Shown here one piece after another: positions 1,563-25,514 of a stretch of DNA of 26,446 nt. Each line of letters opens with the position of its first letter. Positions within the stretch are counted from its first letter, which is position 1. Origin of the DNA: a virus (Duplodnaviria > Heunggongvirae > Uroviricota > Caudoviricetes); the IMG/VR virus record IMGVR_UViG_3300003097_000006; one strand, given 5' to 3'. Made by a program: the position numbers and the translations under genes. Below the pieces are notes generated by a model. It was given only the letters and a program-made list of their open reading frames with translations. It did not search any database and was not told the origin of the DNA.

Positions 1563-2298
1563 AAGATTTAATCCATTCTTCAATTGTTGGAGGAGAAACT
1601 TTCTCAATTGCAGCTCTCATTATAGCTGCTCTGTGTAATTTGTCCTGAATCTCAGGAACTTTGACTCTGGTTTTAGGAACCATAATCGAAACATAAGAAC
1701 TGTCTGCCGAAGCAAACGGATATTGACTCAAGGCACGAACATCCAAAGCCCTCAAACCATGAATCTTAACATCAAACTTGTTCTTAATGTAGATGAAGTC
1801 AAATACCTCATCCATACGCTCACGCCAAGCCTTAGAACGGATTGATTTGTGCTTACCCATACAACCTATGGCAACTCTATCAAAACGCTCACAAAGCCTT
1901 CCTAGGCGCTCTAATGAGCCCTCACTATGCCAAACTGGAACTGCCTTACTGATTATTTCTTCTGGGACTTTTGAGAGGAGTTCGTCGTTTTCCTCATCAG
2001 AGCCACCAATAACATCAGGGACAATAAACCAGCTGATACGACTAAAAAGAGAGCTAACCCAGCTATAATACTTAGACCAGTGCTTGTCCCAATCAACAAT
2101 TTCACCCTTCCTTGTGGATTTCATCCAAACAGAGAAAGCACCATTGTCAAGAACAAGTTCACAATCTAATTGAACAATCCTTTTGATTTGGTCTGGTCGG
2201 TGAAAAGAAACCAAGGCTCCACCTCCACGGTAGAGCGCTTTGATTAACTCATCACCTTCACCGCCCCAAATTGGACCCCCGTGAAAGTGTACTGTCAA
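1543..2298 (-). CDS. TGT/DpdA-like TIM-barrel protein (putative base-exchange enzyme)
   Basis: LDNGAFS, PDVIGG, VPVWH, RVAIG, IHGLR and PFASADSS motifs follow the order seen in tRNA-guanine-transglycosylase-fold proteins. TTG start with GAGGAG RBS. Confidence 0.6.
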   Translation of the reverse strand: MTVHFHGGPIWGGEGDELIKALYRGGGALVSFHRPDQIKRIVQLDCELVLDNGAFSVWMKSTRKGEIVDWDKHWSKYYSWVSSLFSRISWFIVPDVIGGSDEENDELLSKVPEEIISKAVPVWHSEGSLERLGRLCERFDRVAIGCMGKHKSIRSKAWRERMDEVFDFIYIKNKFDVKIHGLRALDVRALSQYPFASADSSYVSIMVPKTRVKVPEIQDKLHRAAIMRAAIEKVSPPTIEEWIKSYELRTA

Positions 2299-2495
2299 AA
2301 CGGTAACTCCTCAAGCTCTTTCTTGACTGCAATGGCTACTGCTTCGTCACAAGCTGGGCATGACCACATCTCACCATGCTTTGTTCCGTACCCACTTTCA
2401 GCAGCTATTACTGGAACCTTAGCACTACAAGTGCAGTTAACATATCCATCATCATCTACCTTAAATGGTAAATCTACAGCCTGTCTCTTAGCCAT
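2295..2495 (-). CDS. Zn-binding microprotein (CxC...CxxC) with acidic EELPF tail, 66 aa
   Basis: Track ORF 2295..2579; likely start ATG 2495 (MAKRQ) overlapping the upstream stop. Stop overlaps the TTG start of the next gene. Confidence 0.6.
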   Translation of the reverse strand: MAKRQAVDLPFKVDDDGYVNCTCSAKVPVIAAESGYGTKHGEMWSCPACDEAVAIAVKKELEELPF

Positions 2496-2757
2496 TGACC
2501 AATTCCTTCGCCTGTCGCTTAAATGTCTCCAGACCTTCCGTGTCGTCACAGTAGTAAAGCTCCGCTTCAATAAGTGCATAATGGATAACTTTCAGTAAAT
2601 CCTGAAGACCATTCTTATTCTTATGACGAAAAGCATACTTAATCATGTTACACTGTTGAAAGTCCAACTGAGGATTAGCATGATAAAACTGAATTGGCTG
2701 AATTGTGTTGGAACCTTGATAATGAGCCCCACCAACCATAGTATTTAAAGCACTCAA
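2488..2757 (-). CDS. DUF3310 family (T7 gp1.7-like nucleotide kinase domain)
   Basis: VGGAHY...IQPI...F...NMIKYAFR..KNG.QDL.K..HY signature. TTG start with GGAGG RBS. Confidence 0.8.
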   Translation of the reverse strand: MSALNTMVGGAHYQGSNTIQPIQFYHANPQLDFQQCNMIKYAFRHKNKNGLQDLLKVIHYALIEAELYYCDDTEGLETFKRQAKELVNG

Positions 2758-2921
2758 GCTTCAACCTCCATTGTTTCAATGTAATAGTTATGTTTATTAA
2801 TACCTAAAGACTCTGCTTTAGCTCTTGCACCCTCTTCTGTGTGGTGCAGACTACGTACCATGAAAGCATACTCGCCCTCAACAGATTCTTCTACCATTAA
2901 TGCGAAAACAACCTGAACCAT
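2754..2921 (-). CDS. microprotein, 55 aa (not in track)
   Basis: MVQVVFALMVEESVEGEYAFMVRSLHHTEEGARAKAESLGINKHNYYIETMEVEA; GAGGT RBS; stop overlaps next start. Confidence 0.7.
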   Translation of the reverse strand: MVQVVFALMVEESVEGEYAFMVRSLHHTEEGARAKAESLGINKHNYYIETMEVEA

Positions 2922-2925
2922 TATA

Positions 2926-3066
2926 TTACCTCAATGCCCAAGAGATGCCAAGTGCAAATTCTGTTTGTCTTAATTTCTTGTTAAGACGCCAAGCGTAAAT
3001 TGTTAATCCGAGGTTACAAACAAATGTAACCCCGAATAAGAACTGATAAACTTGTAACTCATTCAT
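2926..3066 (-). CDS. small membrane protein, 46 aa (not in track)
   Basis: MNELQVYQFLFGVTFVCNLGLTIYAWRLNKKLRQTEFALGISWALR; one hydrophobic helix followed by basic residues; GAAGG RBS. Confidence 0.65.
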   Translation of the reverse strand: MNELQVYQFLFGVTFVCNLGLTIYAWRLNKKLRQTEFALGISWALR

Positions 3067-3379
3067 AAGTAACCTTCAATCTCTTAATTTCAGTAACATT
3101 GGGACTCGGTCTTTCATACATCATGAAAGGCTCAGTCATTTGGAATTCATATATTTCACGACCAAATGGTAATTGGATAGGTTTTTCCAGTTTACGCTGG
3201 ATTATTGCCGTCTCCATTGGTCCGTTAAAGAGTTCTAACCAATCTTTAAGCCTTTCAATAACTTCCTGTTGAGCTTTGATACGGTGTTTCATCATCTCAT
3301 TATCAGCGGATAACTCAATGTTTTTAATCTTTAATTCACGATTCTCTTCGTAAACACCTCTTTCTGGATTAGTAAACAT
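3059..3379 (-). CDS. hypothetical protein with N-terminal coiled coil
   Basis: 106-aa ORF overlapping both neighbours; heptad-like NRELKIKNIELSADNEMMKHRIKAQQEVIERLK. Confidence 0.65.
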   Translation of the reverse strand: MFTNPERGVYEENRELKIKNIELSADNEMMKHRIKAQQEVIERLKDWLELFNGPMETAIIQRKLEKPIQLPFGREIYEFQMTEPFMMYERPSPNVTEIKRLKVTYE

Positions 3380-3713
3380 AGCAAGGTTTTCCTTTCTTCT
3401 TCATGCAATCAATCATGTGTTTCGTACCCTTAGACTCTCCATCCCAAAAGATGATTGCTTGGTCAGCATATAGAGCCATTTGAGCATTTCGAAGCATTCC
3501 AGCCTTCTTGCCATGAATGTGCCACTCAGGTATGAATCGTTTAATTGGAGCTTTGCAGCGACGTGCTACACACTCTCCATGCTGGTCTGGACCACGAGCA
3601 CCACCGGAAACGACCTCGGTAATAGATGCTCGTATCTCTTTGGGAATCTTATTCCACTGAACAACGAACTCTTCCCAACTGATATCTCGTGTTCCGGCGA
3701 TGATTGTTTTCAC
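3369..3713 (-). CDS. stand-alone SLOG-superfamily protein (YspA/DUF2493-like)
   Basis: IIAGTRD, VVSGGARGPD, AGMLRNAQM, FWDGESKGTKHMI motifs; GTG start. Confidence 0.85.
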   Translation of the reverse strand: MKTIIAGTRDISWEEFVVQWNKIPKEIRASITEVVSGGARGPDQHGECVARRCKAPIKRFIPEWHIHGKKAGMLRNAQMALYADQAIIFWDGESKGTKHMIDCMKKKGKPCYVY

Positions 3714-3886
3714 TCTTTAACACTCCAACTGATTACAAAATAATCATCTATCAACCCATCTTCTTTCATTTTATGACCAACAGATTCTGCTTTTTCTTCA
3801 GTTGAGAAAATATCTTCAATTTCAAAATCAGAATCTGGGTTAAGTAGATACGGCTTTTCACGAATCTCAAGTACCCAAACTTTCAT
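3710..3886 (-). CDS. microprotein (MKVWVL family)
   Basis: Track 3710..3895; ATG 3886 forms an ATGA overlap with the upstream stop. Confidence 0.7.
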   Translation of the reverse strand: MKVWVLEIREKPYLLNPDSDFEIEDIFSTEEKAESVGHKMKEDGLIDDYFVISWSVKE

Positions 3887-4053
3887 GATGGACAAATGAC
3901 CTCGTACTCTGTAATCCTAAAGTCAGAACATGCTGACACTTCAGCGTCATGCTCTGCCATTTCGAGCAATAGATATACACCCTGGAATTCCCAAGGCTCA
4001 AACTCATCAGTGAGTTCGTCGTAATCCATCGTCTCCAAGACGTAAACCTTCAT
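3883..4053 (-). CDS. microprotein, 56 aa (MKVYVL family; not in track)
   Basis: MKVYVLETMDYDELTDEFEPWEFQGVYLLLEMAEHDAEVSACSDFRITEYEVICPS; fills the gap exactly. Confidence 0.7.
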   Translation of the reverse strand: MKVYVLETMDYDELTDEFEPWEFQGVYLLLEMAEHDAEVSACSDFRITEYEVICPS

Positions 4054-4234
4054 TTGGGGCTCCTAAGACTGAGATTTCCATTACCTCATAATCTTGGTCT
4101 GGGTTATCTTTAACGTATTCCCGACCAACCCTGTCAGCATCTTCTATGTTCCAGAAGACACCTTTTAGCTGCCATTCAAACTCATTGTAAGCTGAGTAAG
4201 AATCAGCCGTTACTTGCAATACGGCTACCTTCAC
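4007..4234 (-). CDS. microprotein (MKVAVL family)
   Basis: 75-aa ORF, GTG start, similar pattern to the two downstream microproteins. Confidence 0.65.
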   Translation of the reverse strand: MKVAVLQVTADSYSAYNEFEWQLKGVFWNIEDADRVGREYVKDNPDQDYEVMEISVLGAPNEGLRLGDDGLRRTH

Positions 4235-4643
4235 AGGACACTCTCTTATATTTCAAAACCATTTCATATTGAGAAGTTGCTTTTGTATAAGCAATCCACT
4301 CAATTCCTTTGGAAATTGCCAACTCTTTAAGCCACTTGTAGCCACCCACAAGAGCACGTCTGTGCTCGTCTGTGGAGAACGCTACCAGAACACTAAGGCA
4401 ATGTCCTACGTGCATGTCATACTCTTCGTATATCGCCATAGAGGCCACTATATTTCGTTCATCGTCATAGACGACATACTCATATCGGTCTGTACTTTGG
4501 ATAATTCGTAAAGTAGTCTGGTAGAATTCAAAAGGACTGCGATGGTGGAACAAAGGTTGGCCATTGAATACCATTTGAGCAAAGCGAGGGGTGAACCCAT
4601 AGGTAGTTTGACCAGCGCTCAACTCAAGTTTTAATACATTCAT
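4203..4643 (-). CDS. GNAT-fold acetyltransferase-like protein
   Basis: YVVYD...IVASMAIY...DMHVGHCLSV...LAISKGIEWIAYT pattern resembles GNAT-like proteins recalled from phiKMV/KP34-type phages. ATG 4643 with AAGGA RBS. Confidence 0.5.
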   Translation of the reverse strand: MNVLKLELSAGQTTYGFTPRFAQMVFNGQPLFHHRSPFEFYQTTLRIIQSTDRYEYVVYDDERNIVASMAIYEEYDMHVGHCLSVLVAFSTDEHRRALVGGYKWLKELAISKGIEWIAYTKATSQYEMVLKYKRVSCEGSRIASNG

Positions 4644-4657
4644 GGCCAATTCCTTAA

Positions 4658-4867
4658 TTAATCACAAGATGGACTTGAGTAATCACAGCTAGGAGATGAG
4701 TCATAGCTGGGGCTTGAGTCATACTGGGAATAAATCCAAGGGTCATACGCTGGAGTTGATGCTGAACGAGCTTCATCTTCACGACGACGACGATAAGTTT
4801 CGTTACAGACTATCTGAGATTGACGAGTCTGGTGTACTGAACCACAATTAGAGCAACGATTAGTCAT
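4658..4867 (-). CDS. microprotein with N-terminal CxxC and SSPS(Y/C)D repeats
   Basis: Track 4658..4900; likely start ATG 4867 (MTNRCSNCG). Confidence 0.6.
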   Translation of the reverse strand: MTNRCSNCGSVHQTRQSQIVCNETYRRRREDEARSASTPAYDPWIYSQYDSSPSYDSSPSCDYSSPSCD

Positions 4868-5231
4868 TAGTTTTAGCCTCAATACGAGATAATTCACCAA
4901 GAGTAGGAGCTTGTGCCTGACCTACACTTGCATGTTGTGTTTGACCACCAATGGCAGTCGGTTGGTTATACCAATACTCTATTCCACCGGCTCCTGGGTT
5001 TCGCCAAGGGATTCCGCCACCGCCCGGGTAAGCAATACCCGAACCGGAACGACCTGGGCAAAAATGCGCACCTTGGATGTAGGAGCCGCACGTTGGGCAA
5101 GGTTGAGGCCCACGCGACGCACGAATAAACCGCTTAGCAGCGGCAAGAAGAACATCATAACCAACATCGGGCTGTAGGCCTTCAGCTACAGCAACAGCTC
5201 TTTCCAGAGCATCTAAGCTTGTGTTATTCAA
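4860..5231 (-). CDS. hypothetical protein, CxxC..C motif and Gly/Pro-rich tail
   Basis: Track 4860..5264; likely TTG start 5231 overlapping the ligase end, with AAGG RBS. Confidence 0.55.
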   Translation of the reverse strand: MNNTSLDALERAVAVAEGLQPDVGYDVLLAAAKRFIRASRGPQPCPTCGSYIQGAHFCPGRSGSGIAYPGGGGIPWRNPGAGGIEYWYNQPTAIGGQTQHASVGQAQAPTLGELSRIEAKTND

Positions 5232-6312
5232 TTGGGTTACCTTCCTTGTCACATTCACGGACATATAAACCTACTGGGAATTGAGGAAGCCCATCATTAG
5301 TCAGAGCTTGATACTTATAAGTAATCCATTTACCAATAAGTTTACGCTGCTCAGCAGCTAAACGCTCATCATGAGAACCCTTCATTTTGCACTTGAATTT
5401 CTTATTAACATCACCCTTCATGTGCAGTTTGAGGACTCCTTCCCCATTCAAATCTTCTTCAACATCTTCCACATATGCTTCAGCATCATTCATAAGCTTC
5501 CACTTCTGTAGGTGATGTGAGCGGTGATTATATTCATATACACCACGCAGATTACGAAGCATTAAACCTTCATAACCTTCATTCATAAACTTGGTGAGGA
5601 AGATACGAGCAGCTTCTTCACTGTTTACCGTAACGTTACCAACCACTTTCAGCGGAAGACGGCAAGCCTGTTTAACAGACTCAAGTAACGTCTCTTTACG
5701 TTCTTGCCAAGGGACACGCTGAACTGGTACGTCAAAAATATGAAACTCAAGTCGATGAGTATTCATATTTGGCTTCTTAACAGCACTTACAATGTCTTGA
5801 AGTGGAAGACCATGAATATACAATTCACCATCCAACTTGTCAACATGTGCTTTCTTAGAAACCAGAATTAATTCACGACGGATATGTTCAGGGCAGTCAT
5901 AAGTCTTACCACCACGAGAGTGGAGAGTTACTTCACCATCAACAATGCTTGCAATACAGCGTACACCATCGAGTTTAGGAGAAACATCGCAAGGAAAAAC
6001 GATACGATGAGACTGCTGAAGATAATTATGAGCAAGCATAGGAAGAGCTTCACCAACATTCCTTGCTTCTTCAATTGTCGGTCGGTAGCACTTGTCGAGT
6101 TGCTTTGCATACTTTGCTTCAGCTTCTCGGAGCGCTTGTTCATGGGGAGATGTCTCATTAGCTTTACCAATGTTCTTGCCCTTCACAGTAGTTTCTTTTG
6201 ACTGCATCTTGCCGCCAAACTTACCATGCCGAACAACGATAGTGGATTCAAGGACTTCAATAGTCCAATGTTTAACGCCACCATTCTTATCAACTGCAAA
6301 CAACTCTTTCAT
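5224..6312 (-). CDS. lig: ATP-dependent DNA ligase with N-terminal WGR-like domain
   Basis: Motif I KLDGVR, III LDGELY, IIIa FHIFD, IV EGLMLR, V QKWK; C-terminal OB fold. Confidence 0.92.
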   Translation of the reverse strand: MKELFAVDKNGGVKHWTIEVLESTIVVRHGKFGGKMQSKETTVKGKNIGKANETSPHEQALREAEAKYAKQLDKCYRPTIEEARNVGEALPMLAHNYLQQSHRIVFPCDVSPKLDGVRCIASIVDGEVTLHSRGGKTYDCPEHIRRELILVSKKAHVDKLDGELYIHGLPLQDIVSAVKKPNMNTHRLEFHIFDVPVQRVPWQERKETLLESVKQACRLPLKVVGNVTVNSEEAARIFLTKFMNEGYEGLMLRNLRGVYEYNHRSHHLQKWKLMNDAEAYVEDVEEDLNGEGVLKLHMKGDVNKKFKCKMKGSHDERLAAEQRKLIGKWITYKYQALTNDGLPQFPVGLYVRECDKEGNPIE

Positions 6313-6359: not shown

Positions 6360-6857
6360 TTACTTCAGACCTTTAGTTGCTTTCATTACGAGAGCAATAT
6401 TGGCAATTTGGGTTGGTGTTACATCCTCAAGGCCAAGTTCCTGGATAACCCGCAAAACATCCTTTGGGTCCAGTTCATCACCATCACCATCGTAAACAGC
6501 TTCTGCACCTTCAACCTGTGCATTATCACGAGGCTCAGCCAGAGCCGCTTCCTGAACCAAATTACCATCAGACAGTCCAGTAACATCTTCAATGTCAGAA
6601 CCATCCAGTCGGTCAAACTCGGTAGTATTAGCAACAGGGTCTCGTTCCTGAGCACCCTTGAACTCATAAACCTCAGAACCAGAAGCAGTCATTGCAGATT
6701 GGAATGAACGTTCTGTAACTTCTTCAATATCACCGCTGACCAGGTACAGTCGAACGTAATCTTTAGAAGGGCGTTCCATCTTCGTAATCAGTGACAGGTT
6801 CAGAAACACAGGTTCCGGATGGTTCACAGAGGTCAGTTGATACATCTTCAGGCTCAT
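6360..6857 (-). CDS. hypothetical protein (small beta-rich N-domain, acidic linker, C-terminal helices)
   Basis: 165-aa ORF with AAGGAAG RBS, ending just before the terminator; codon style typical of this genome. Confidence 0.75.
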   Translation of the reverse strand: MSLKMYQLTSVNHPEPVFLNLSLITKMERPSKDYVRLYLVSGDIEEVTERSFQSAMTASGSEVYEFKGAQERDPVANTTEFDRLDGSDIEDVTGLSDGNLVQEAALAEPRDNAQVEGAEAVYDGDGDELDPKDVLRVIQELGLEDVTPTQIANIALVMKATKGLK

Positions 6858-7674
6858 TAGCAGCTTCCTTACTTATAGAGTAATCCAACCAGTCCCAATT
6901 GAACAGGTTGTCGGGCGTCTGCCCTATATAAAGTAATCTTGCATTCTCAAGCATGATGTCTTCATGCTCATCACCGAATACAATTTCATATTGCGCTTTA
7001 ACAATGTCGTAGAGTTCTTGAACAGTTGTAGCATTTTCGAGTAACTTGATGGCTGTCTTCTCACCAACGCCTTTACGACGCATCATGAGTTTACCGCCCC
7101 ACATTGTCTCTTGCTTCTTACCACACCCAATAATATTATCTGTATTATCGCCGTGAAGCATTTGTTCAAAGAAGAATCTCTTAGATTCGAACTCATCCAC
7201 CCAATGTTTTTGTATTTCAGGCTGATTATCACCGCAAGCCCATCTGTAATGCCAACCGAAGCAAGTCCACATGTCTTTATCACGAGTAGCAATCAGTGTA
7301 TTTTCTGGGTCTTTACGCTGTTCAATGGCTAACCAATCATCAGCTTCCATACCGTCCACCACTACATGAGGGTGGTTCTTAATAATGTAATCCCCAACAG
7401 TTGCGTAATGGAAAGGCCGCTGTTCGTTAGGGTCTCGGTTCCCTTTGTAGGGTTCCTGTTTGGCGACTTCGTTTCGGAAGTTACCTTTACCGGAGAGAGC
7501 ACAAATGTACTCATCTCCTTTGTTAATCTTGAACACATGTTGAATGAGTTCTTCAACGAGCTTACAAATCTCACCCTCAGGTGCAGGAACATATTCCTTT
7601 TCGATGAATGGATGGGCTGCTTTAACAGAGCCAATCTGGTATCGAAGAATGTCGGCGTCAATTAAAATTCTCAT
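6763..7674 (-). CDS. 5'-3' exonuclease / RNase H (T7 gp6-like, FEN/PIN fold)
   Basis: IDAD, NFR, YKGNR, EADD, RDKD, GDNTDNIIG motifs. Confidence 0.9.
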   Translation of the reverse strand: MRILIDADILRYQIGSVKAAHPFIEKEYVPAPEGEICKLVEELIQHVFKINKGDEYICALSGKGNFRNEVAKQEPYKGNRDPNEQRPFHYATVGDYIIKNHPHVVVDGMEADDWLAIEQRKDPENTLIATRDKDMWTCFGWHYRWACGDNQPEIQKHWVDEFESKRFFFEQMLHGDNTDNIIGCGKKQETMWGGKLMMRRKGVGEKTAIKLLENATTVQELYDIVKAQYEIVFGDEHEDIMLENARLLYIGQTPDNLFNWDWLDYSISKEAANEPEDVSTDLCEPSGTCVSEPVTDYEDGTPF

Positions 7675-8564: not shown

Positions 8565-9338
8565 TTAGAACGGAATGTCGTCGTCAAAGGCAACATCGTT
8601 CGGGGTGTTACGAGTGTTGGTATTGCTACCGTACTTCTCTTCTTCACGAGTAGTAGTGTTATCTGGACGGTCACCATCACCACCATCATTTACAGGCTCT
8701 TTACCTGCATATGGGATGTGCTGAGCATCTTTCGCTTCAGTCAGCATGTCACGCTGGAACTTGTAAACCTTAGCATACGCAGCAGTCATTGCTGGAGTGT
8801 CGGAGTACGGGTTGAACGCAACCATTTCTGAACGAGCTTCACCTACTTTAGATTTGTTACGAGAGCTAACAGCGCCAACAGAGGTTACTTTGTTACGAGT
8901 GATGCCCTGTTTTGTGGTATAAGAACCAACACCAACAGAAACAACTTCACCCAGTTTATCCATGAACCATTCCAGATTGCGTGGAACTTCAGTGATAGTT
9001 GGGTCAATTGCTTTGCAGAGGTCGAATACACCACCACGTTTAGCACCTGGGAACAGGAAGTAATCTTTGAACTGGCAAGATGGACGAGGGTCAATCGGCT
9101 TACCGACTTTATCTTCGTCACCTTCGAAAGTACGACCAGTAGCATCGATATCAATCAGTTCGAATGCAATGGAGCACTTAAAGGCTGGAGCTTTGCGTTC
9201 GCCCTGCCATTCAGGTTGTTCCTGAACACCAAGACCGATAAAGCGGACAATACGCGCATCATATACATCGTTTTCGATAACGTCATATACAGTACGGGAT
9301 TTTTTAGAAGAGGAAGTAGATGGGATAGCAGTAGTCAT
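8565..9338 (-). CDS. putative single-stranded DNA-binding / annealing protein
   Basis: YDARIVRFIGLGVQEQ N-terminus, beta-rich core, disordered acidic C-tail ending DDDIPF like bacterial SSB; strongly biased codons. Confidence 0.65.
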   Translation of the reverse strand: MTTAIPSTSSSKKSRTVYDVIENDVYDARIVRFIGLGVQEQPEWQGERKAPAFKCSIAFELIDIDATGRTFEGDEDKVGKPIDPRPSCQFKDYFLFPGAKRGGVFDLCKAIDPTITEVPRNLEWFMDKLGEVVSVGVGSYTTKQGITRNKVTSVGAVSSRNKSKVGEARSEMVAFNPYSDTPAMTAAYAKVYKFQRDMLTEAKDAQHIPYAGKEPVNDGGDGDRPDNTTTREEEKYGSNTNTRNTPNDVAFDDDIPF

Positions 9339-14923: not shown

Positions 14924-16759
14924 TTAGTGAGTATGGAGCCATGAACCACCCAACATTGAGTCAGAAGCTAAAGGACATTCCATATTCAAAGATTCACCAG
15001 CCTTCTTAACACAAGCATCAATATAAGAGCGAAGAGTTGGAACATCTTCCCACTTGCAAGTGAACTGGAATTCATCGTGCATCATGATAACTTGGTAAGC
15101 CTCCAGACCAGATTTTTCAATCCAACCTGTCAGATAGCAATCTGCAATCTTCATTACGATTGAACCAGCAGATTGTAACATTGTGTTCAAAGCTTTGTGA
15201 GTCATTACCTCGCCGCTGAATGGGTCACGACGCATGATGAGCTTACGACCATCAATTGCTGGAACCCAACCATTCTTGCCAGCGAAATCCTGAACCCAAT
15301 CCATAAGAACTGGAATACAAGGACACTCTTTCAAGAATGCTTCACGAGCGTTCTGACCCTCTTCAAGACCACCACCCAACTGAGCACCTAAGTTTGCGTT
15401 ACCAGCGCCATACAAAAACGCATAGATAAACGTCTTAGCTTGCTTACGAGTTGGAAGACCTGCGAGTTTCTGGTTGTGTGAGTGGATATCACCATTCAAC
15501 AGAACTTCACGATACTCCAAAGCTGAATCAAGTGCTTTCTGATAATAAGCTTCTTTCTTCTTATCACCACTCTCTTTAGCTTCTTCCAAGAGCATCTTAG
15601 AAACTGCAATCAGATAATGAGTCAACATACGTAACTCAAGACCTGCACCATCCCCACCAACAAAAGCATCTTGACCAGCAGGAATCAGGAATGAACAGTG
15701 ACCTGCATCTTCCCAACGACCTTTGTCAAATTCCTGCATAATGTTGGTAAGTGGTTTACGTCTGAACTTGCCAGATGCTTCCATCTCAGCAGTTAGCTTA
15801 CGAACAAGTTTAGCTGTTGAACCTTTACGTTTGTCACCTTTGAATAAGTGACGACACTCCTCACCGAATGGTGAACCTGCGGCTGGAATGTTAACAATAA
15901 TCTTATGTCGCATACGTGCTGTAGGAGTCGCACATGGGTTAGCTTCACCCGACAACTTCCCATCCACACGTACCTGCTCAATCAGACCTTGAATCAACGA
16001 ACGACGGTGAGCCCAAATCATTCGTTCTTTCAGAAGTTTGAGAGCGAGACCTTCATCCTCACTCACTGATTCGAACGAATCCTCAGTGATTTTCGGAGAG
16101 GTTGGCCAAAACTGTCGCAGTAGTAACTTCTTTTTAATCTGGTCAAAGTTAGGAACCTTGCGGCTTAGGTCGAAGCCAATTGCCGTCAAGATTGCTCTCA
16201 TGTAACCTTTTGATTTTCCACGGAGATGGGAGTCTACGAAACCCTCAACCGCTTCTAAGAAAGCTACTTTATCTTCTTTGTCACACTGATTGTTGATGAA
16301 GTTCGCAAATGTTGATTTCTCAAGACGTTTACGATACTGCCATACTTGGAATGGAGTTTTCTTCTCATTCCATTCAGTAGGTAACCAACCCATATCCAAC
16401 ATGACATCTTTTAGACGAGATGTTTTACCTGGGTCAAATGGAGTGTACCAAACCGCTGAAAACGGTCCAGAGACTTCATCAAGAGTCAGTCCATGAGTGT
16501 CCATGTATTTTTGAACGAACACTTTCGGCTGGCCATTCATCTTGAACGGTGCTTTATATTCAGTACCTTTGTGCTGCATCGGCGGCAACAGAGGAACCAA
16601 CTCAAGGTCAATCTTGAGAATCTTTTCAGTGAGAACATGAACATACCAACGAGCTTGACGCTCATCGAAATTACAACCATGCTTCCATTGTTTTGAGATT
16701 AAATCTGCAACCTTCTGTTCAAGAAGGAAAGGTTTTGTCCAGTCCGGTTTGATATCCAT
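14924..16759 (-). CDS. family A DNA polymerase, polymerase domain only (split enzyme)
   Basis: Motif A GGDGAGLELR, motif B RKQAKTFIYAFLYG, motif C MHDEFQ; no exonuclease motifs. Likely ATG 16759 with GAGGT RBS. Confidence 0.93.
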   Translation of the reverse strand: MDIKPDWTKPFLLEQKVADLISKQWKHGCNFDERQARWYVHVLTEKILKIDLELVPLLPPMQHKGTEYKAPFKMNGQPKVFVQKYMDTHGLTLDEVSGPFSAVWYTPFDPGKTSRLKDVMLDMGWLPTEWNEKKTPFQVWQYRKRLEKSTFANFINNQCDKEDKVAFLEAVEGFVDSHLRGKSKGYMRAILTAIGFDLSRKVPNFDQIKKKLLLRQFWPTSPKITEDSFESVSEDEGLALKLLKERMIWAHRRSLIQGLIEQVRVDGKLSGEANPCATPTARMRHKIIVNIPAAGSPFGEECRHLFKGDKRKGSTAKLVRKLTAEMEASGKFRRKPLTNIMQEFDKGRWEDAGHCSFLIPAGQDAFVGGDGAGLELRMLTHYLIAVSKMLLEEAKESGDKKKEAYYQKALDSALEYREVLLNGDIHSHNQKLAGLPTRKQAKTFIYAFLYGAGNANLGAQLGGGLEEGQNAREAFLKECPCIPVLMDWVQDFAGKNGWVPAIDGRKLIMRRDPFSGEVMTHKALNTMLQSAGSIVMKIADCYLTGWIEKSGLEAYQVIMMHDEFQFTCKWEDVPTLRSYIDACVKKAGESLNMECPLASDSMLGGSWLHTH

Positions 16760-16775
16760 ATCTACCTCAATCAGT

Positions 16776-17060
16776 TCACTTGCCGTACACCTGGACCCAT
16801 TTGGCCAGTTTATTGCTGATAGCAATCATTAAGTCGGCTTCGTATTTTCCTTGAAGACCAGAGTCCAATGCGGCCTGGTATCCTGCGTCAGTTACTGCAA
16901 TAATTACATCAGCTACTTCACTGACAATTTCTTCGTAGCCCATACGCTTAAGAACTGCCTGAGCAAGTTCTCCAGTTTCTTCAGCTACCTTGAGAGTGAC
17001 ACCTATAGTGTCACGCTCTTGTTCAATGCTTCTGGCAGTGCAAATGACCTCATCCAGCAT
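16776..17060 (-). CDS. MazG-like nucleotide pyrophosphohydrolase
   Basis: KVAEETGELAQAV...SEVADVII: the EExGE...ExAD metal motif. Confidence 0.8.
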   Translation of the reverse strand: MLDEVICTARSIEQERDTIGVTLKVAEETGELAQAVLKRMGYEEIVSEVADVIIAVTDAGYQAALDSGLQGKYEADLMIAISNKLAKWVQVYGK

Positions 17061-18187: not shown

Positions 18188-18358
18188 TTAATTCTCCCAA
18201 TAATCGTCTACATCAGATTCATCGAATCTTTCCCCGGGGACTGTTTCTTTACAGCGGGGGCATTCATAATAGTGGGAATAATCATCTGTACTTACTTGTT
18301 TCATTGGAATAAAGCACCAGTCACATTCCACTGACCGGCGTGTGACTCGACGATACAT
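18188..18358 (-). CDS. Zn-ribbon microprotein, 56 aa (not in track)
   Basis: MYRRVTRRSVECDWCFIPMKQVSTDDYSHYYECPRCKETVPGERFDESDVDDYWEN; TAATG overlap. Confidence 0.7.
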   Translation of the reverse strand: MYRRVTRRSVECDWCFIPMKQVSTDDYSHYYECPRCKETVPGERFDESDVDDYWEN

Positions 18359-20733: not shown

Positions 20734-20739
20734 TATTAA

Positions 20740-21116: not shown

Positions 21117-21382
21117 TATCGGCTCTCTTCTAAGTCCATATTAGCACCCACATTACCTTCAAGGTTGGCATTCACTTGCTGAGTGATTACTACAAGGTTT
21201 TTAGGGTAGGAGAGGGTTGTTTTACCGCTGGACAGAACATGGATACGAACCTTTTGTTTGGTTACACCAACAACTCGTGCAACCATAATAGGTTGGTTAT
21301 ATTTCCCGTTCGACCAGATAACAATGTCGTCACCACGGATAACGCGGTTCAACTTGTCACGATGGTTATAATCAAGAAGCAT
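21116..21382 (-). CDS. hypothetical SH3/KOW-like protein
   Basis: DKLNRVIRGDDIVIW...ARVVGVTKQKVRI beta-barrel pattern. Confidence 0.65.
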   Translation of the reverse strand: MLLDYNHRDKLNRVIRGDDIVIWSNGKYNQPIMVARVVGVTKQKVRIHVLSSGKTTLSYPKNLVVITQQVNANLEGNVGANMDLEESR

Positions 21383-21668
21383 TTTCCACCTTCCGTGCCG
21401 CTGAGAGGATGAAATTCCGCAGCATGTCTTCTGATTGCATACCAGTCTTCATGTCAACAGGTACACTATCCTCAAACACAACGATAGTAGGAATGCCACG
21501 GATGCCAAAAGTACGAGCCTCGTTTCGATAGGTATCTTCATCAATACTCCGTGATTCAAATACGAAACCTTCTTCTTCAAGTTCCTTCTGAACTTTGTCA
21601 AAGATTGGAGCGATGGCTTTACACGGTGCGCAGGTGCTACCGAAATACTTAATTACCTTAAATGTCAT
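21372..21668 (-). CDS. trx: thioredoxin-like protein
   Basis: CAPC active site; FGIRGIPTIVVF cis-Pro loop; KTG. Confidence 0.9.
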   Translation of the reverse strand: MTFKVIKYFGSTCAPCKAIAPIFDKVQKELEEEGFVFESRSIDEDTYRNEARTFGIRGIPTIVVFEDSVPVDMKTGMQSEDMLRNFILSAARKVENAS

Positions 21669-22411
21669 TACTTATCCTTTCTCTCATTTTCAACTTCCAT
21701 AGCCTTAACGACTGCCTTACAGAAACCACTTCGAACGATATCGTCTGAAGAGCCTTCCACTACGGCTGCAAATTCGTCCAGATTATGTCGGTCAATGAAA
21801 TCAACTGACCATTCAAGGCCATTCTGTCCACCCATGTCGTGCTGTTCTGAGTCACCCAAGCAGAAGAGCTTAGATGTTTCACCCAGACGAGTCATGATTG
21901 AGTATGCTTCATCCGGTTTGGTGTTTTGGAATTCGTCAACGATGATGATTGCATCATTGAAAGAGCGGCCACGCAGGTATTCCAGCGGAACGAACTCAAT
22001 GTTGCCATTACCGAGCTGACATTCATAGAAGCCATGACCATAACGCTCTTTGATTACATCAATCAAAGGCATCAGGTATGGTTCGAATTTCTCACGCATT
22101 GTACCTGGCAGAAGACCAAGAGAACGACCCATACCAACTGAAGGTCGGCTAAGGATAATCTTCTTGACTTTATTCTTTTTAAGCCAGTCAATAGCGGTTG
22201 ACATGATAATAAAAGTCTTACCACATCCAGCCGGGGCGTCTACGAAAACAACCTGCGACTCATGAATTTCAGCCTGCAATTCAGCTTGGAACTCATTGAG
22301 TGGATGCACTGGTTTCGCAACCCGTACTTCTTCACTTTCACGACGAGCGTGACGAGTGGTTTCTTTCAGGGCTTCACGACGCTGTTCTTTACGACTCTGA
22401 CGACGATTCAT
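21668..22411 (-). CDS. phoH: PhoH-family ATPase
   Basis: PAGCGKT Walker A, GLLPG, EYLRGRSF, VDEFQN, TRLG, GDSEQHD. Confidence 0.95.
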   Translation of the reverse strand: MNRRQSRKEQRREALKETTRHARRESEEVRVAKPVHPLNEFQAELQAEIHESQVVFVDAPAGCGKTFIIMSTAIDWLKKNKVKKIILSRPSVGMGRSLGLLPGTMREKFEPYLMPLIDVIKERYGHGFYECQLGNGNIEFVPLEYLRGRSFNDAIIIVDEFQNTKPDEAYSIMTRLGETSKLFCLGDSEQHDMGGQNGLEWSVDFIDRHNLDEFAAVVEGSSDDIVRSGFCKAVVKAMEVENERKDK

Positions 22412-22419
22412 TCAACACC

Positions 22420-23010
22420 TCACTTATCCGTGTGACCTTCACCAGCGTAAGCCTGTGTTGCACCACGCTGCTTATTGTAGTTGCCCTTCACAGCGTATGA
22501 GTCTTCACCCACAGTTTCATGCTGGAAGAACACCATCTGACCAATACGCATACCTGGTTTGATTAACAGGCGATGGAACTGGTTCATGTTCTTGAATTCA
22601 AGTGTAAGCTGAGCGCCATGCCAACCGGCGTCAGCCCACCCGGCTTGCATGTGTTCGAGGAAACACCGAGCAACTGTAGAACGCTCGATAAACTGCCCGG
22701 AGATGGTGTCAGGCAGATTGAAAGTTTCGACTGTGTGGGCGAGAAAGCACTGACCTGGCTCAATTACGATTCCCTCCTCTGGAATTGTGACCTTTTGGAA
22801 GGCGGGAGATTGCTTAGCTGAAATGTCAATTGGTTCATCGTGGACATCATCATAAAGACCGATACCAACACAATGTCTCTGGAATGGAACCTCCAGAAGA
22901 ACTTCATCACCAATACGAACATCAATAGATGCAGAATTCACATTCTCATGCAGGGCGTCAATCACACCATCGTCAATGAGTTGGTGCAGTTGAGGAGCAG
23001 ATAACAGCAT
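22420..23010 (-). CDS. dcd: dCTP deaminase (trimeric dUTPase superfamily)
   Basis: NSASIDVRIG, IEPGQCFLAHTVE, ERSTVAR, DAGWHGAQLTLE, GMRIGQMVF, Y..KGNY. Likely ATG 23010 with AAGGAAGG RBS. Confidence 0.88.
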   Translation of the reverse strand: MLLSAPQLHQLIDDGVIDALHENVNSASIDVRIGDEVLLEVPFQRHCVGIGLYDDVHDEPIDISAKQSPAFQKVTIPEEGIVIEPGQCFLAHTVETFNLPDTISGQFIERSTVARCFLEHMQAGWADAGWHGAQLTLEFKNMNQFHRLLIKPGMRIGQMVFFQHETVGEDSYAVKGNYNKQRGATQAYAGEGHTDK

Positions 23011-23020
23011 TAGACCTTCC

Positions 23021-23134
23021 TTAGTCTTCTGACTCTTCTGAGTCGTAGAAAGAATACGGGTCAGAGCAGACAATTGTGTCTGATAACTCGTCATAACTAA
23101 ACATAATTCCGTTTACTTCAAATAGTGAATCCAT
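23021..23134 (-). CDS. 37-aa highly acidic microprotein (not in track)
   Basis: MDSLFEVNGIMFSYDELSDTIVCSDPYSFYDSEESED; AAGGA RBS; ends at the dcd RBS. Confidence 0.6.
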   Translation of the reverse strand: MDSLFEVNGIMFSYDELSDTIVCSDPYSFYDSEESED

Positions 23135-23149
23135 GCTAATTCCTTTAGC

Positions 23150-23175
23150 AAGGCCACCCTTATAGTAGTGGCCTT
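23150..23175. promoter_or_regulatory. intergenic hairpin between exonuclease and acidic microprotein genes
   Basis: AAGGCCAC-N10-GTGGCCTT 8-bp inverted repeat; weak U-tract. Confidence 0.5.
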
Positions 23176-23195
23176 TGAGGGGTATCCTTACACCG

Positions 23196-23702
23196 TTATT
23201 TGTAAAATTCGATTAAGCTCGATGGTGGATTGAACGGGTCAAAACCAGCCTTTTCACAAAGGTGCAAATAAAGTGCGACTGTTACGTTAACGTCCTGCTC
23301 ACAGTAGTTAAACATGTCCTCGCTGAAAACGTCCCAAACATCTTCACCTTCACCATAAGTACCTTTTAAGATACCAAGTGCAACACCCCAAGATTTGAGG
23401 CTATGACCACCTTGGCGGTCAGGCTCTAACATACGGCTCAATACCAGCGTATCAAAGACACGCTTAATACGGAACTCATTCGGGAACAGTTTTGCAAGCA
23501 CTGGAAAGTCATAATCAATCACGTTGTGACCAATCACAATATCATATCCGGCTAAATCCTCCAGATATTCTTTCCATTGCTCAGGACGATATCCTTTACG
23601 GATACCAGTGGTCGGCTCAATAATCCAAGCACAATGCCACTTGTCTACATCCAGATACAGGTTATTCGTTTCAATATCGGTACAAGCAATTCTTAATGCC
23701 AT
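23196..23702 (-). CDS. 3'-5' proofreading exonuclease subunit of the split DNA polymerase
   Basis: ExoI TDIET, ExoII GHNVIDYD, DTLVLSR, SLKSWG, ExoIII YCEQDV. Confidence 0.92.
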   Translation of the reverse strand: MALRIACTDIETNNLYLDVDKWHCAWIIEPTTGIRKGYRPEQWKEYLEDLAGYDIVIGHNVIDYDFPVLAKLFPNEFRIKRVFDTLVLSRMLEPDRQGGHSLKSWGVALGILKGTYGEGEDVWDVFSEDMFNYCEQDVNVTVALYLHLCEKAGFDPFNPPSSLIEFYK

Positions 23703-23711
23703 GTCCTATCC

Positions 23712-25514
23712 TTAGAATGGTCTTGAATCATCTCGTGGAATACCACCATCATCCTCAGGTTCTGCACCCGGAATGCTGAATGGATTCTTCGCATCATACT
23801 CATCTTCAGTTCGTTGACGCAGACGACCTGTAACTGGGTTATAAACAGTTGGCACAATACCAGTCTGTCCAAAGTTACGGTCTTTCAGCAGACGAATCTG
23901 AGACAGGTTACGAGCATCACCGTCCGCTTGCTTGTTACGTTCAAAGCCCAGAATTAACTGAGAGAAACGCATCAGAGCACGAGAACCAGTGAACTGTACT
24001 TCCTGGACCTGACCACCCTCTTCGTGCGGAGCACCAGTTTTCGGTGGGTTCAAGTGAGAAAATACGAAGCAAGTGAAGTTCAACTCATTACACAGACCAG
24101 CCAGTTCAACGGCAATCTTTGCAACTTCAGTGTTGATTTCAGTCGCTGAGAGATGAGAAACCAGAGCGGTGATGTTGTCCAAGAAGATGAACTTAACACC
24201 ATGCTCTACCACCCAGAAACGCATACAACGTTTGATATCTTCCCAATCGTTTTGACCGAAGTTACGGTACAAGAACAATTGACCATCATACTTCATGGCC
24301 TCGTTCTTCAACAGGTCGGGGTCGAAATCTACGTCTGGACGGTGGAAAGGAATGTTCGCTGATTTACCAGCGATGTTCTTGATAGTGTTGCCAACAGTCT
24401 CTTCGAGCATGAAAGCTCCGACCTTGTGCTTGTGTACGTTAATGATATGAGACGCAATCTCGTGTGCGAGAAGAGTCTTACCACCACCTACACCACCACC
24501 AATAGAAATTACTTCACCGAATCGAAGACCAAAGGTCAAGTTGGTCAGACCTTCCCAAGGGAAAGACAGACCCCACTCTGGCTTCTTCAGAGCATCTTCC
24601 AAGCATTCAGCTACAGTTGCAGAACCTGCTGGAGATTCTTTAGCTGCATTGAAACGCAGGATGTTGTTCAGCTCTAAATTACGACCTTCCATCAGAAGGT
24701 CATTGGCATCCTTTACAGGAGAACCATCCTTCTTCAAGCCCTTTGGAATACGTGCAATCTTCACGTTCGGATACATAGCACGAATCGTGTTTACAGCATC
24801 ATCACCAGCCTCATCATTGTCCATACAGACAACGATTTCAGCGAATGAATCAACGAACTGCCGGTTACGAGCTAAAGCCGAAGCTGCTGATTTAGAACCA
24901 TCAGGCAACGACACACACGCTGGCTTATAAGTTGATTTGCTGTTCTCAACCAACACCTGGAAACCAGACATTGCACTGAGTTCGTCTTCGAAGATAAATA
25001 GCTTTTGAGAATAAACATCACCCATTCGTGCTTGGCTGATACCAAACAGGTCACAACCACTACCCGAACCTACAGCATAGAAGCTTTTAGGATTCAGGAT
25101 ACGAACTTTGTACGCCATGATTACACCATCTTTCTCCTTCGGGTAGAAGTGAGAGATAGGTTCACGGTTTGTGGATGAAAGTCCAACTCGAACGCCATAA
25201 CGTTCAGCAACATCTCGCTTAATACCACGAGAATCAAGAGCCATCATTGGTAACTCACGCACCTGAGACAGCGCTGCTTCACGTTCCTCTTCTGTCAGTT
25301 CACGATATTCTGTACGAACACCTTCCCATTCAGATTTGTTACCTTCGTCAATCTTTTCGTAGAATCCATCACGGGAGCAATAGACCCACTGTTCTTGCGT
25401 TTCGTCGTTAATCCAGTGCTGGAGATGGTTACCAGTACGGTCACGACCTTCCGCTGTACAAACTGGGCACGGAGAGTCACCCAGAATGCGTTTGTTACCA
25501 TAAGACTTGCTCAT
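23712..25514 (-). CDS. T7 gp4-like primase-helicase
   Basis: N-terminal Zn motif CPVC; TOPRIM (FEDE, MDNDEAG); DnaB motifs GGGVGGGKT, LEE, FLDNI, FSHL, GSRA, KDRNFG. Confidence 0.93.
   Translation of the reverse strand: MSKSYGNKRILGDSPCPVCTAEGRDRTGNHLQHWINDETQEQWVYCSRDGFYEKIDEGNKSEWEGVRTEYRELTEEEREAALSQVRELPMMALDSRGIKRDVAERYGVRVGLSSTNREPISHFYPKEKDGVIMAYKVRILNPKSFYAVGSGSGCDLFGISQARMGDVYSQKLFIFEDELSAMSGFQVLVENSKSTYKPACVSLPDGSKSAASALARNRQFVDSFAEIVVCMDNDEAGDDAVNTIRAMYPNVKIARIPKGLKKDGSPVKDANDLLMEGRNLELNNILRFNAAKESPAGSATVAECLEDALKKPEWGLSFPWEGLTNLTFGLRFGEVISIGGGVGGGKTLLAHEIASHIINVHKHKVGAFMLEETVGNTIKNIAGKSANIPFHRPDVDFDPDLLKNEAMKYDGQLFLYRNFGQNDWEDIKRCMRFWVVEHGVKFIFLDNITALVSHLSATEINTEVAKIAVELAGLCNELNFTCFVFSHLNPPKTGAPHEEGGQVQEVQFTGSRALMRFSQLILGFERNKQADGDARNLSQIRLLKDRNFGQTGIVPTVYNPVTGRLRQRTEDEYDAKNPFSIPGAEPEDDGGIPRDDSRPF

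What the first reader, a model, noticed from the sequence alone, without database searches (positions are those of the whole stretch)
2295..25514. Shared acidic C-terminal '-PF' tail on four proteins: a possible replisome docking code
The SSB-like protein ends AFDDDIPF, the primase-helicase PRDDSRPF, the 5'-3' exonuclease DYEDGTPF and the Zn microprotein ELEELPF. About 0.1 such endings would be expected by chance among roughly 65 ORFs (rough estimate). E. coli SSB (DDDIPF) and T7 gp2.5/gp4 use acidic Phe-ended tails to dock on partner pockets. Here a common pocket, perhaps on the split polymerase, may be shared. The microprotein could be a competitor, an adaptor recruiting the neighbouring TGT-like enzyme, or a mimic that jams host SSB-interacting proteins.
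Basis: partly seen in the sequence, partly recalled or inferred. Interest (0 to 1): 0.7.

Follow-up and report, generated by a model that had tools for sequence, protein, structure and literature searches.

The report
Shared acidic -PF docking tails in phage
In this relative of Salmonella phage 7-11, the DNA-binding protein, the helicase-primase, an exonuclease and a tiny zinc protein all end in the same acidic "...PF" peptide. This most likely extends the docking-tail principle known from phage T7 and bacterial SSB, but the pocket that reads the tails is still unknown.

Summary
Four of about 61 ORFs end in an acidic -PF tail, against 0.19 expected.

- **SSB-like protein:** an OB-fold protein with no Pfam family. 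93 of 100 homologues end DDDxPF, after a disordered linker.
- **Primase-helicase (T7 gp4-like):** 80 of 120 homologues end in an aromatic residue, 76 with Pro before a terminal F/W/Y/I, and 75 are acidic.
- **Zinc-ribbon microprotein:** the real gene is 66 aa (2295-2495). It has few relatives, and every one keeps EE(L/DI)PF.
- **Exonuclease:** the tip DYEDGTPF is kept only in close relatives (5 of 120 end PF). Acidic C-terminal extensions are common in the family.

In related Pseudomonas phages the SSB tip and the helicase tip change together (PI/PI, W/W). This hints at a shared, phage-side reader, but there are exceptions.

T7's front basic-patch loop is absent from this polymerase. The microprotein travels with a DUF3310 gene, not with the TGT/DpdA gene. 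Phage 7-11 has a fifth tailed protein outside the window.

This is a variant of the known T7 and E. coli tail principle. This scan has noted similar tails on other phage DNA.

The parts
8565..9338 (-). SSB-like protein, 257 aa (phrog_6599; homologue of phiEco32 gp40). OB-fold core of about residues 14-200, disordered linker 227-249, tip FDDDIPF (codons 8568-8588).
   Evidence: It has no Pfam family. The AF2 model has pLDDT 84. The best solved match is the OB-fold DNA-binding protein PrgE, Z 7.5 over 119 residues, followed by LEF-3, RPA and PriB. 93 of 100 homologues end in PF; P256 and F257 are invariant, and D252 and D254 are at least 90% conserved.
23712..25514 (-). T7 gp4-type primase-helicase, 600 aa, with an acidic tail ending PRDDSRPF (codons 23715-23738).
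   Evidence: Matches DnaB_C, Toprim_2 and phrog_239 at E 1e-179. Of 120 homologues, 80 end in F, Y or W (F 57, Y 15, W 8) and 22 in I. 76 have Pro before a terminal F/W/Y/I, and 75 have a net charge of -3 or lower over the last 15 residues.
6763..7674 (-). 5'-3' exonuclease / flap endonuclease (T7 gp6-like), 303 aa, with an acidic C-terminal extension of about 30 residues ending DYEDGTPF (codons 6766-6789).
   Evidence: Matches phrog_107 and PF02739/PF01367. The tip is identical in homologues of 89% and 74% identity, while the linker before it differs. Only 5 of 120 homologues end PF, 3 end PY and 6 end FG. 50 of the 76 long forms have acidic ends. T7 gp6 has no such tail.
2295..2495 (-). Zinc-ribbon microprotein, 66 aa: CxC...CPxC, then a helix at residues 47-62, then the tip EELPF (codons 2298-2312).
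   Evidence: It has no Pfam or PHROG family. Only four small homologues (one of them the window's own 66-aa form) appear among 1.8 billion representative proteins, and all end EE(L/DI)PF. C21, C23, C46, P47, C49, E62, E63, P65 and F66 are invariant. AF2 pLDDT is 77. The best fold match is weak (CsfB, Z 4.2).
2488..2757 (-). DUF3310 protein, 89 aa, resembling the C-terminal part of T7 gp1.7-type 'nucleotide kinases'. It is the conserved upstream partner gene of the microprotein.
   Evidence: Matches PF11753 (E 2e-9), and phrog_26149 and phrog_236. It lies directly upstream of the microprotein in the window, 7-11, pSal-SNUABM-01, PKM.Hi.22.6 and four metagenomic contigs. In Proteus phage Privateer it precedes a 56-aa CxxC...CxxC protein ending ...KDLPF.
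14924..16825 (-). Family-A DNA polymerase, polymerase subunit, 633 aa. Candidate reader of the tails, untested.
   Evidence: Matches PF00476 and phrog_17. In the alignment with T7 gp5, the T7 front basic-patch loop is absent.
23196..23702 (-). 3'-5' exonuclease subunit of the split polymerase, 168 aa.
   Evidence: Matches PF01612. It is the homologue of 7-11 gp082 and phiEco32 gp74.
1543..2298 (-). TGT/DpdA-like transglycosylase. It lies downstream of the microprotein but is not linked to it in all relatives.
   Evidence: Matches phrog_887. It is found only in the Moazamivirus relatives and PKM.Hi.22.6 among the loci examined, and is absent beside the microprotein in L010-L012. 7-11 DNA carries a trace of dADG (PMC6884629).

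Best explanation
The tails are short docking peptides of the SSB-Ct / T7 kind. Each is a flexible acidic run ending in x-Pro-Phe with a free carboxylate, displayed at the end of proteins that must meet at the replication fork.

The SSB-like protein and the gp4-like primase-helicase carry the tail as an ancient feature of their whole families. In this phage genus the same tip has also been placed on three more proteins: the lagging-strand 5'-3' exonuclease, a 66-aa zinc-ribbon protein, and (in phage 7-11, outside this window) an 85-aa protein ending GFDDKIPF.

The most likely working model has one reader pocket, or a few, each a hydrophobic hole for the Phe with a basic rim. The tailed proteins take turns on it or are concentrated around it. 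That would couple unwinding, ssDNA coating and primer removal. The microprotein would act as a small tip-bearing adaptor for its constant neighbour, the DUF3310 protein, or else as a competitor for the pocket.

Shown here: the tails exist, they exceed chance, and three of them are conserved while the linkers before them drift. It could be the phage polymerase, the SSB's own DNA cleft as in T7 gp2.5, or host SSB partners.
For: - **Excess over chance:** 4 PF ends against 0.19 expected.
- **SSB-like family:** 93 of 100 end PF; P256 and F257 are invariant; the linker is unconserved and predicted disordered.
- **Helicase family:** 80 of 120 have an aromatic end, 76 have Pro before a terminal F/W/Y/I, and 75 are acidic.
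- **Microprotein:** the tip is invariant at 40-53% overall identity.
- **Exonuclease:** the tip is unchanged at 74% identity while the linker changes; P[FY] tips recur in scattered lineages.
- **Tips change together in related replisomes with homologous helicases:** 7-11-type phages have PF/PF; LUZ24 has TPI on the helicase and API on its gp2.5-like SSB; SCYZ1 has TPI and LPI; Bjorn has DAW and DRW; T7 has TDF and GDF.
- **More tailed proteins:** a fifth lies after the ATP-grasp gene in 7-11, PKM.Hi.22.6 and BUCT695.
- **Published precedent:** the T7 gp4 and gp2.5 tails dock on gp5, and the gp2.5 tail is needed to stimulate gp6 (PMC12593628; PMC4124056). DDDIPF is the SSB-Ct hub peptide (PMC5872125).
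Against: - No binding was tested here.
- The exonuclease tip is not family-wide (5 of 120 end PF).
- Tip matching between SSB and helicase has exceptions: phiEco32 SPW vs SPF; Lyrsu03 ...VQWGSGSSE vs ARW; metagenomic LUZ24-like contigs SVFN vs IPF, SPF vs DFFS, IFGA vs IPF. Only about two independent switches support co-variation.
- The T7 front basic-patch loop is missing from this polymerase, so the T7 docking site cannot simply be transferred.
- The SSB-like protein's ssDNA binding is inferred from fold and architecture only. The best Z is 7.5, and there is no PF00436 or DUF669 HMM match.
Confidence: 0.6

Rival explanations
1. Host hijack or mimicry. The tips copy the host's own SSB C-terminus, and their readers are host SSB-interacting proteins such as the Pol III chi subunit, PriA, RecQ, ExoI, RNase HI and Ung. 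These would be recruited to phage forks by the SSB-like protein and the helicase, or soaked up by the small tailed proteins. This can coexist with the main explanation.
For: The last seven residues of the SSB-like protein, FDDDIPF, equal the published E. coli tip (DDDIPF per PMC5872125; the full ...MDFDDDIPF from textbook knowledge). 7-11 gp098 ends GFDDKIPF. Prophage DUF669 SSBs are reported to carry DDDIPF, and their authors suggest host integration (PMC13687109). Some LUZ24-like contigs keep FDDDIPF on the SSB while the helicase tip differs.
Against: In LUZ24, SCYZ1 and Bjorn the SSB and helicase tips have moved together away from IPF, to PI or W. Pseudomonas SSB keeps the standard tip (textbook knowledge, not checked here). 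That points to a phage-side reader in those relatives. In the phage SSB family the residue before the Pro is free (I, V, A, M, K, C, S), and the helicase has R or K there.
Confidence: 0.25
2. There is no shared code. Only the SSB-like tail is a true docking peptide. The helicase tail is a generic acidic tail, and the exonuclease and microprotein endings are lineage quirks with unrelated roles. For example, the microprotein could be a zinc-finger regulator.
For: The exonuclease tip is restricted to a narrow clade. The look-elsewhere probability for any dipeptide reaching four ends is 2.3%. The microprotein's best fold match is the anti-sigma factor CsfB, and only weakly (Z 4.2). The tips differ at positions -3 to -6.
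Against: The microprotein tip is invariant at 40% identity. The exonuclease tip is invariant while its linker drifts. Further small proteins in relatives carry the same tip. The helicase end is conserved as Pro-aromatic, not merely acidic.
Confidence: 0.1
3. The acidic C-termini are substrates or handles for the phage's own RimK-like ATP-grasp / amidoligase / glutamine-amidotransferase cassette, which would modify protein C-termini.
For: The fifth tailed gene sits directly after, and overlaps, the ATP-grasp gene in 7-11, PKM.Hi.22.6 and BUCT695. The cassette lies next to the helicase gene in LUZ24-like phages. Another cassette protein, 7-11 gp103, ends ...DEEDDEDTANF.
Against: This rests on gene position only. 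T7 has the tails without the cassette. No enzyme-substrate evidence exists.
Confidence: 0.03

Closest known systems
Phage T7 replisome: acidic, Phe-ended C-terminal tails of gp2.5 (SSB) and gp4 (helicase-primase) that dock on gp5 DNA polymerase
   Same: Both have a gp4-type primase-helicase, a family-A polymerase, a phage SSB and a gp6-like exonuclease. In both, the helicase and the SSB end in an acidic run with a terminal Phe (T7...NDTDF and ...EDGDF). The role of these tails in polymerase binding and in gp6 stimulation is published.
   Different: Here the tip is x-Pro-Phe, as in bacterial SSB, not Asp-Phe. The exonuclease itself and two small proteins also carry the tip, whereas T7 gp6 ends ...YLWRP. 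The SSB belongs to a different, uncharacterised family. The polymerase is split and lacks the T7 front basic-patch loop.
Bacterial SSB C-terminal tip (SSB-Ct, ...DFDDDIPF), the hub peptide for a dozen or more genome-maintenance proteins
   Same: The architecture is the same: OB-fold core, disordered linker, acidic tip ending IPF. The last seven residues of the window protein are identical to the E. coli tip.
   Different: The core is not a PF00436 SSB. The same tip also sits on non-SSB proteins. The readers are unknown and may be phage-encoded.
Phage and prophage DUF669 SSBs (Healer Gp63; PMC13687109)
   Same: Both are phage OB-fold SSBs outside PF00436. The prophage members are reported to end in DDDIPF. 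One depositor annotated the pSal-SNUABM-01 orthologue as DUF669.
   Different: None of the 54 family members matches the DUF669 HMM even at E <= 1. DUF669 proteins appear only as weak structural hits. No Gp64-like AAA partner gene was seen next to it.

Membership tests
SSB-Ct-type docking tip | The motif lies at the extreme C-terminus and ends Pro-Phe, preceded by acidic residues | tested here: met
   All four ORFs meet this. Net charge over the last 12 residues is -4 for the SSB-like protein, -4 for the exonuclease, -1 for the helicase (-3 or lower over a longer stretch) and -1 for the microprotein.
SSB-Ct-type docking tip | The tip is carried on a flexible, poorly conserved linker | tested here: met
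   In the SSB-like protein, residues 227-249 have pLDDT below 50 and show no consensus in 54 sequences. The exonuclease linker varies while the tip is fixed. In the microprotein the tip follows a helix directly.
SSB-Ct-type docking tip | The tip binds a hydrophobic pocket with a basic rim on partner proteins | not testable with these tools
No partner has been identified.
Bacterial SSB family (PF00436) | HMM match to the SSB OB domain | tested here: not met
   The window protein has no Pfam family, and none of the 54 homologues matches at E <= 1. The resemblance is at fold level only.
DUF669 phage SSB (PF05037) | HMM match to DUF669 | tested here: not met
   0 of 54 members match. Foldseek hits to DUF669 proteins in BFVD are weak, E about 1e-4 and TM about 0.27.
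T7-type tail-to-polymerase docking | gp4-like primase-helicase with an acidic, aromatic-ended tail, together with a family-A polymerase | tested here: met
T7-type tail-to-polymerase docking | Front basic patch (T7 gp5 K587, K589, R590, R591) on the polymerase | tested here: not met
   In a MAFFT alignment of six polymerases, the T7 loop carrying these residues is a 14-15 residue insertion absent from the window, phiEco32, Privateer, Bjorn and SCYZ1 enzymes. The flanking DGRK motif aligns well. A different basic surface is not excluded.
T7-type tail-to-polymerase docking | Basic patch on a thioredoxin-binding domain | tested here: inconclusive
   The region aligns poorly and has a 22-residue gap. 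The phage encodes its own thioredoxin (7-11 gp079), but whether it binds the polymerase is unknown.
Treble-clef / zinc-ribbon small proteins (CsfB, ClpX ZBD) | Four zinc ligands in two knuckles plus a C-terminal helix | tested here: inconclusive
   The CxC...CPxC residues are invariant. The fold matches are only Z 4.2 (CsfB) and Z 3.1 (ClpX ZBD).

The most novel reading that the evidence does not exclude
The tip is a portable address tag read by a phage-encoded pocket that co-evolves with it: F in 7-11- and T7-type phages, I in LUZ24-type, W in Bjorn-type. Phages expand the client list by adding the tag to new proteins. In this genus the tag recruits the primer-removing exonuclease. Through a 66-aa zinc-ribbon adaptor it also recruits a DUF3310 (gp1.7-like) protein, and a further small protein comes from the amidoligase cassette. 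If so, metabolic or modification enzymes would be tethered to the fork.
Probability: 0.25. Interest if true: 0.7.

Novelty: new variant of a known kind. Interest (0 to 1): 0.5.

Why it matters
Replisome assembly in phiEco32- and 7-11-like phages has not been studied, and their SSB is still annotated as a hypothetical protein. If a single C-terminal tag organises helicase, SSB, exonuclease and small accessory proteins, several things follow:
- It gives a simple, testable wiring diagram for a T7-like replisome in a culturable Salmonella phage.
- It assigns a function to a widespread family of unknown function (phrog_6599, phiEco32 gp40).
- It offers natural tip variants (PF, PI, W) for testing how docking specificity evolves.
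- Tip-bearing microproteins could be a general way for phages to plug extra factors into the SSB interaction hub, or to block it.

Tried and rejected
No binding test of any kind was run.
- **No whole genome is held for the window**. The fifth tailed protein was therefore seen only in the 7-11 record.
- **The search for related loci** with single proteins recovered only phage 7-11 itself.
- **The microprotein has no database family.** It has no Pfam or PHROG match. The ESM Atlas feature search was uninformative. The larger hits in the representative search are unrelated long proteins, not relatives.
- **SSB-like protein.** A profile search against PDB sequences found nothing. Membership in DUF669 or PF00436 was rejected on HMM evidence.
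- **TGT adaptor idea** was rejected on synteny.
- **Identity with phiEco32 gp79.** The small protein after the ATP-grasp gene shows no sequence resemblance to gp79, and the literature says 7-11 lacks a gp79 homologue (PMC8948821).
- **Transfer of the T7 front basic patch** to this polymerase was rejected by the alignment.
- **Strict co-variation of the terminal residue between SSB and helicase** holds only in part.

Full report
**What the window is.** The 26.4-kb window is the leftward replication and nucleotide-metabolism operon of a close relative of Salmonella phages 7-11, SE131 and SeKF_80 (about 92% DNA identity). These belong to Grimontviridae, genus Moazamivirus, and are phiEco32-like podoviruses. 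Nearly all genes lie on the minus strand.

**The observation.** Four minus-strand ORFs end in -PF:
- 2295-2579: ...KKELEELPF
- 6763-7674: ...DYEDGTPF
- 8565-9338: ...AFDDDIPF
- 23712-25514: ...PRDDSRPF

In a tiling set of 61 ORFs the PF dipeptide frequency predicts 0.19 such ends, and no other terminal dipeptide occurs more than twice. Resampling gave PF at four or more in 0 of 20,000 trials. Any dipeptide at all reached four in 2.3% of trials. The observation therefore stands.

One correction concerns the microprotein. It is 66 aa and starts at 2495. That ATG has a GAAGGA ribosome-binding site and overlaps the stop codon of the preceding gene, whereas the ATG at 2579 has no such site. All homologues are 59-66 aa.

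**The SSB-like protein (8565-9338).**
- It has no Pfam family. It belongs to phrog_6599, of unknown function, and is the homologue of phiEco32 gp40.
- With a 54-sequence alignment, AF2 gives pLDDT 84: a beta-rich core at residues 14-200, a disordered stretch at 227-249, then the tip.
- Structure searches return OB-fold nucleic-acid binders. PrgE is best (Z 7.5, 119 residues, rmsd 4.5), followed by baculovirus LEF-3, RPA and PriB. Foldseek lists bacterial SSBs at weak scores.
- In BFVD it matches many uncharacterised podophage proteins and, weakly, DUF669 proteins and one annotated SSB.
- No member matches the DUF669 or SSB HMMs.
- 'SSB-like' is therefore a reasonable inference from fold, architecture and gene position. 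It is not shown.
- The tail is a family signature. 93 of 100 homologues end in PF, and most of the remaining seven are truncated or carry an extension after the PF. The consensus is FDDDxPF. P256 and F257 are invariant and the linker is unconserved.
- The last seven residues equal the tip of E. coli SSB.

**The primase-helicase (23712-25514).**
- It is a T7 gp4-type enzyme (DnaB_C, Toprim_2, phrog_239).
- Among 120 homologues the last residue is F in 57, I in 22, Y in 15 and W in 8.
- 76 have Pro before a terminal F, W, Y or I, and 75 carry a net charge of -3 or lower over the last 15 residues.
- T7 gp4 ends ...STDWSNDTDF and gp2.5 ends ...EADEDGDF, read from the T7 record.
- Both T7 tails are published to dock on basic patches of gp5. 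The gp2.5 tail is also required to stimulate the gp6 exonuclease (PMC12593628; PMC4124056).
- The helicase tail here is thus the local form of a known device.

**The exonuclease (6763-7674).** This is the weak member.
- Only 5 of 120 homologues end PF. Three end PY and six end FG.
- Short forms stop at the conserved ...NLFDWDWL... motif with no extension.
- T7 gp6 has no tail.
- Even so, 50 of the 76 long forms have acidic ends.
- Within the Moazamivirus-level clade the tip DYEDGTPF is identical at 89% and 74% overall identity, while the linker before it changes.
- I read this as a labile, lineage-specific acquisition of the tip. It is probably functional in this genus, but it is not a family trait.
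- The overlap with the downstream gene is probably only 17 nt, because that gene likely starts at an internal ATG.

**The microprotein (2295-2495).**
- It has no family in Pfam or PHROGs.
- A search of 1.8 billion representative proteins found only four small homologues, one of them the window's own 66-aa form. tblastn found it in eight phage records.
- All end EE(L/DI)PF. The invariant positions are the four cysteines (CxC...CPxC), two glycines, W44, P47, E62, E63, P65 and F66.
- AF2 (pLDDT 77) predicts a small zinc ribbon, a helix at 47-62 and a free tip. Fold matches are weak (CsfB Z 4.2, ClpX zinc-binding domain Z 3.1).
- Its constant neighbour is not the TGT/DpdA-like gene but the upstream DUF3310 gene (PF11753), which resembles the C-terminal part of T7 gp1.7-type 'nucleotide kinases'.
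- DUF3310 followed by the microprotein is found in the window, 7-11, pSal-SNUABM-01, PKM.Hi.22.6 and four metagenomic contigs.
- In contigs L010-L012 no TGT gene lies beside the pair or anywhere in the about 20 kb fetched from the longest of them.
- In Proteus phage Privateer the DUF3310 gene is followed by a 56-aa CxxC...CxxC protein ending ...KEIKDLPF. This is a positional analogue with no significant sequence match.
- Aeromonas phage BUCT695 has DUF3310 but no microprotein.
- This argues against the TGT-adaptor idea. It suggests instead an adaptor for, or regulator of, the DUF3310 protein.

**More tailed proteins.**
- In the 7-11 genome, outside the window, the 85-aa gene that overlaps the end of the RimK-like ATP-grasp gene ends ...IGFDDKIPF. 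Its homologues in PKM.Hi.22.6 (...YDDESPF) and BUCT695 (...YDDHIPF) keep the tip while the rest diverges.
- It does not resemble phiEco32 gp79, in line with the published absence of a gp79 homologue in 7-11 (PMC8948821).
- Another protein of the same cassette, 7-11 gp103, ends ...DEEDDEDTANF.

**Who reads the tails?** I looked for co-variation between the SSB tip and the helicase tip.

| Phage or contig | Helicase tip | SSB tip |
|---|---|---|
| Window, 7-11, pSal-SNUABM-01 | RPF | IPF |
| PKM.Hi.22.6 | RPF | CPF |
| BUCT695 | KPF | VPF |
| Privateer | KPF | VPF |
| LUZ24 | ...DDDTPI | ...DEDAPI |
| SCYZ1 | TPI | LPI |
| Bjorn | ...DVDAW | ...LDDRW |
| phiEco32 (exception) | SPW | SPF |
| Lyrsu03 (exception) | ...VQWGSGSSE | ARW |
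| Contig L018 (exception) | SVFN | IPF |
| Contig L019 (exception) | SPF | DFFS |
| Contig L020 (exception) | IFGA | IPF |

- LUZ24 has a homologous helicase (its near-identical relative phiIBB-PAA2 shares about 59% identity in the helicase half) but an unrelated gp2.5-like SSB.
- The matched switches to I and to W, away from the tip kept by the hosts' own SSB, favour a phage-encoded reader that evolves with its clients.
- However, they amount to about two independent events, so this is suggestive only.
- The one T7 docking site I could check, the front basic-patch loop, is absent from this polymerase and its relatives in alignment. 'The pocket is on the polymerase' therefore remains a guess.
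- Host SSB partners remain a live alternative or additional reader, given the exact host-like tip on the SSB-like protein and on gp098.

**Comparison with what is known, and verdict.**
- Shared acidic Phe-ended tails on a phage SSB and helicase are textbook for T7. The IPF tip as an interaction hub is textbook for bacterial SSB. DDDIPF on prophage DUF669 SSBs was reported in 2026 (PMC13687109).
- I found no paper in the held library on SSB-type tips on phage non-SSB proteins.
- Earlier notes of this same scan describe the same theme on other phage DNA: helicases, clamps and small four-cysteine proteins bearing the tip. Those notes are unchecked leads and not support, but they show that the pattern recurs.
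- What is particular here is the combination: an uncharacterised SSB family, a tail on the exonuclease itself, a tip-bearing zinc-ribbon microprotein coupled to DUF3310, and partial tip co-variation across related replisomes.
- I rate it a new variant of a known kind, of moderate interest, with the mechanism inferred and not shown.

Noticed in passing
Outside the window; L021:2015-2272 (-) = phage 7-11 gp098. Also L005:3344-3604 and L006:2345-2596.: A fifth small protein (85 aa) overlaps the end of the RimK-like ATP-grasp gene and ends ...IGFDDKIPF. Its homologues in PKM.Hi.22.6 and BUCT695 keep an acidic -PF tip. 7-11 gp103, in the same cassette, ends ...DEEDDEDTANF.
   Followed up: partly
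Proteins P0058, P0061, P0073 (homologues of window 8565-9338): Three SSB-like homologues continue for about 14 residues past the DDDxPF tip, with a conserved extension (APIGLQ...LNC[IM]). This looks like a lost or read-through stop codon, which would bury the tip.
   Followed up: no
L001:15598-15922 (7-11 record NC_015938, about 31543-31822): In the 7-11 reference record the microprotein gene is unannotated and matches in two pieces (a frameshift; the ORF is cut to 40 aa). It is intact in the window, SE131, SeKF_80 and pSal-SNUABM-01. This is either a sequencing error or a pseudogene in 7-11.
   Followed up: partly
window 23702-23712, compared with L001:36832-37248: Phage 7-11 carries an endonuclease VII gene between the helicase gene and the polymerase exonuclease-subunit gene. 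The window has only 9 nt there, so a mobile nuclease gene is present in one phage and absent in the other, right at the helicase tail.
   Followed up: no
window 18188-18358 (-): A second zinc-ribbon microprotein (56 aa, phrog_29481) has a very acidic end, ...ERFDESDVDDYWEN. The end is conserved as ...DIDDYWEID in pSal-SNUABM-01 and is acidic with aromatics in PKM.Hi.22.6. It is not a PF tip.
   Followed up: no
L007 (Proteus phage Privateer): 13755-13976 and 24471-25031: Privateer has further -PF-ended proteins: a 73-aa protein ending ...VTVSEPF and a deoxyribosyltransferase-superfamily protein ending ...GTAEPF. The set of tailed proteins may differ from genus to genus.
   Followed up: no
window 14924-16825 (-) and 21372-21668 (-): Compared with T7 gp5, the polymerase lacks the front basic-patch loop and part of the thioredoxin-binding insertion. 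Yet the phage encodes its own thioredoxin. Whether that thioredoxin is a processivity factor is unknown.
   Followed up: partly
window 1543-2298 (-): The TGT/DpdA-like gene has no preQ0 pathway genes nearby. The literature reports only trace dADG (about 0.02% of G) in 7-11 DNA (PMC6884629).
   Followed up: partly
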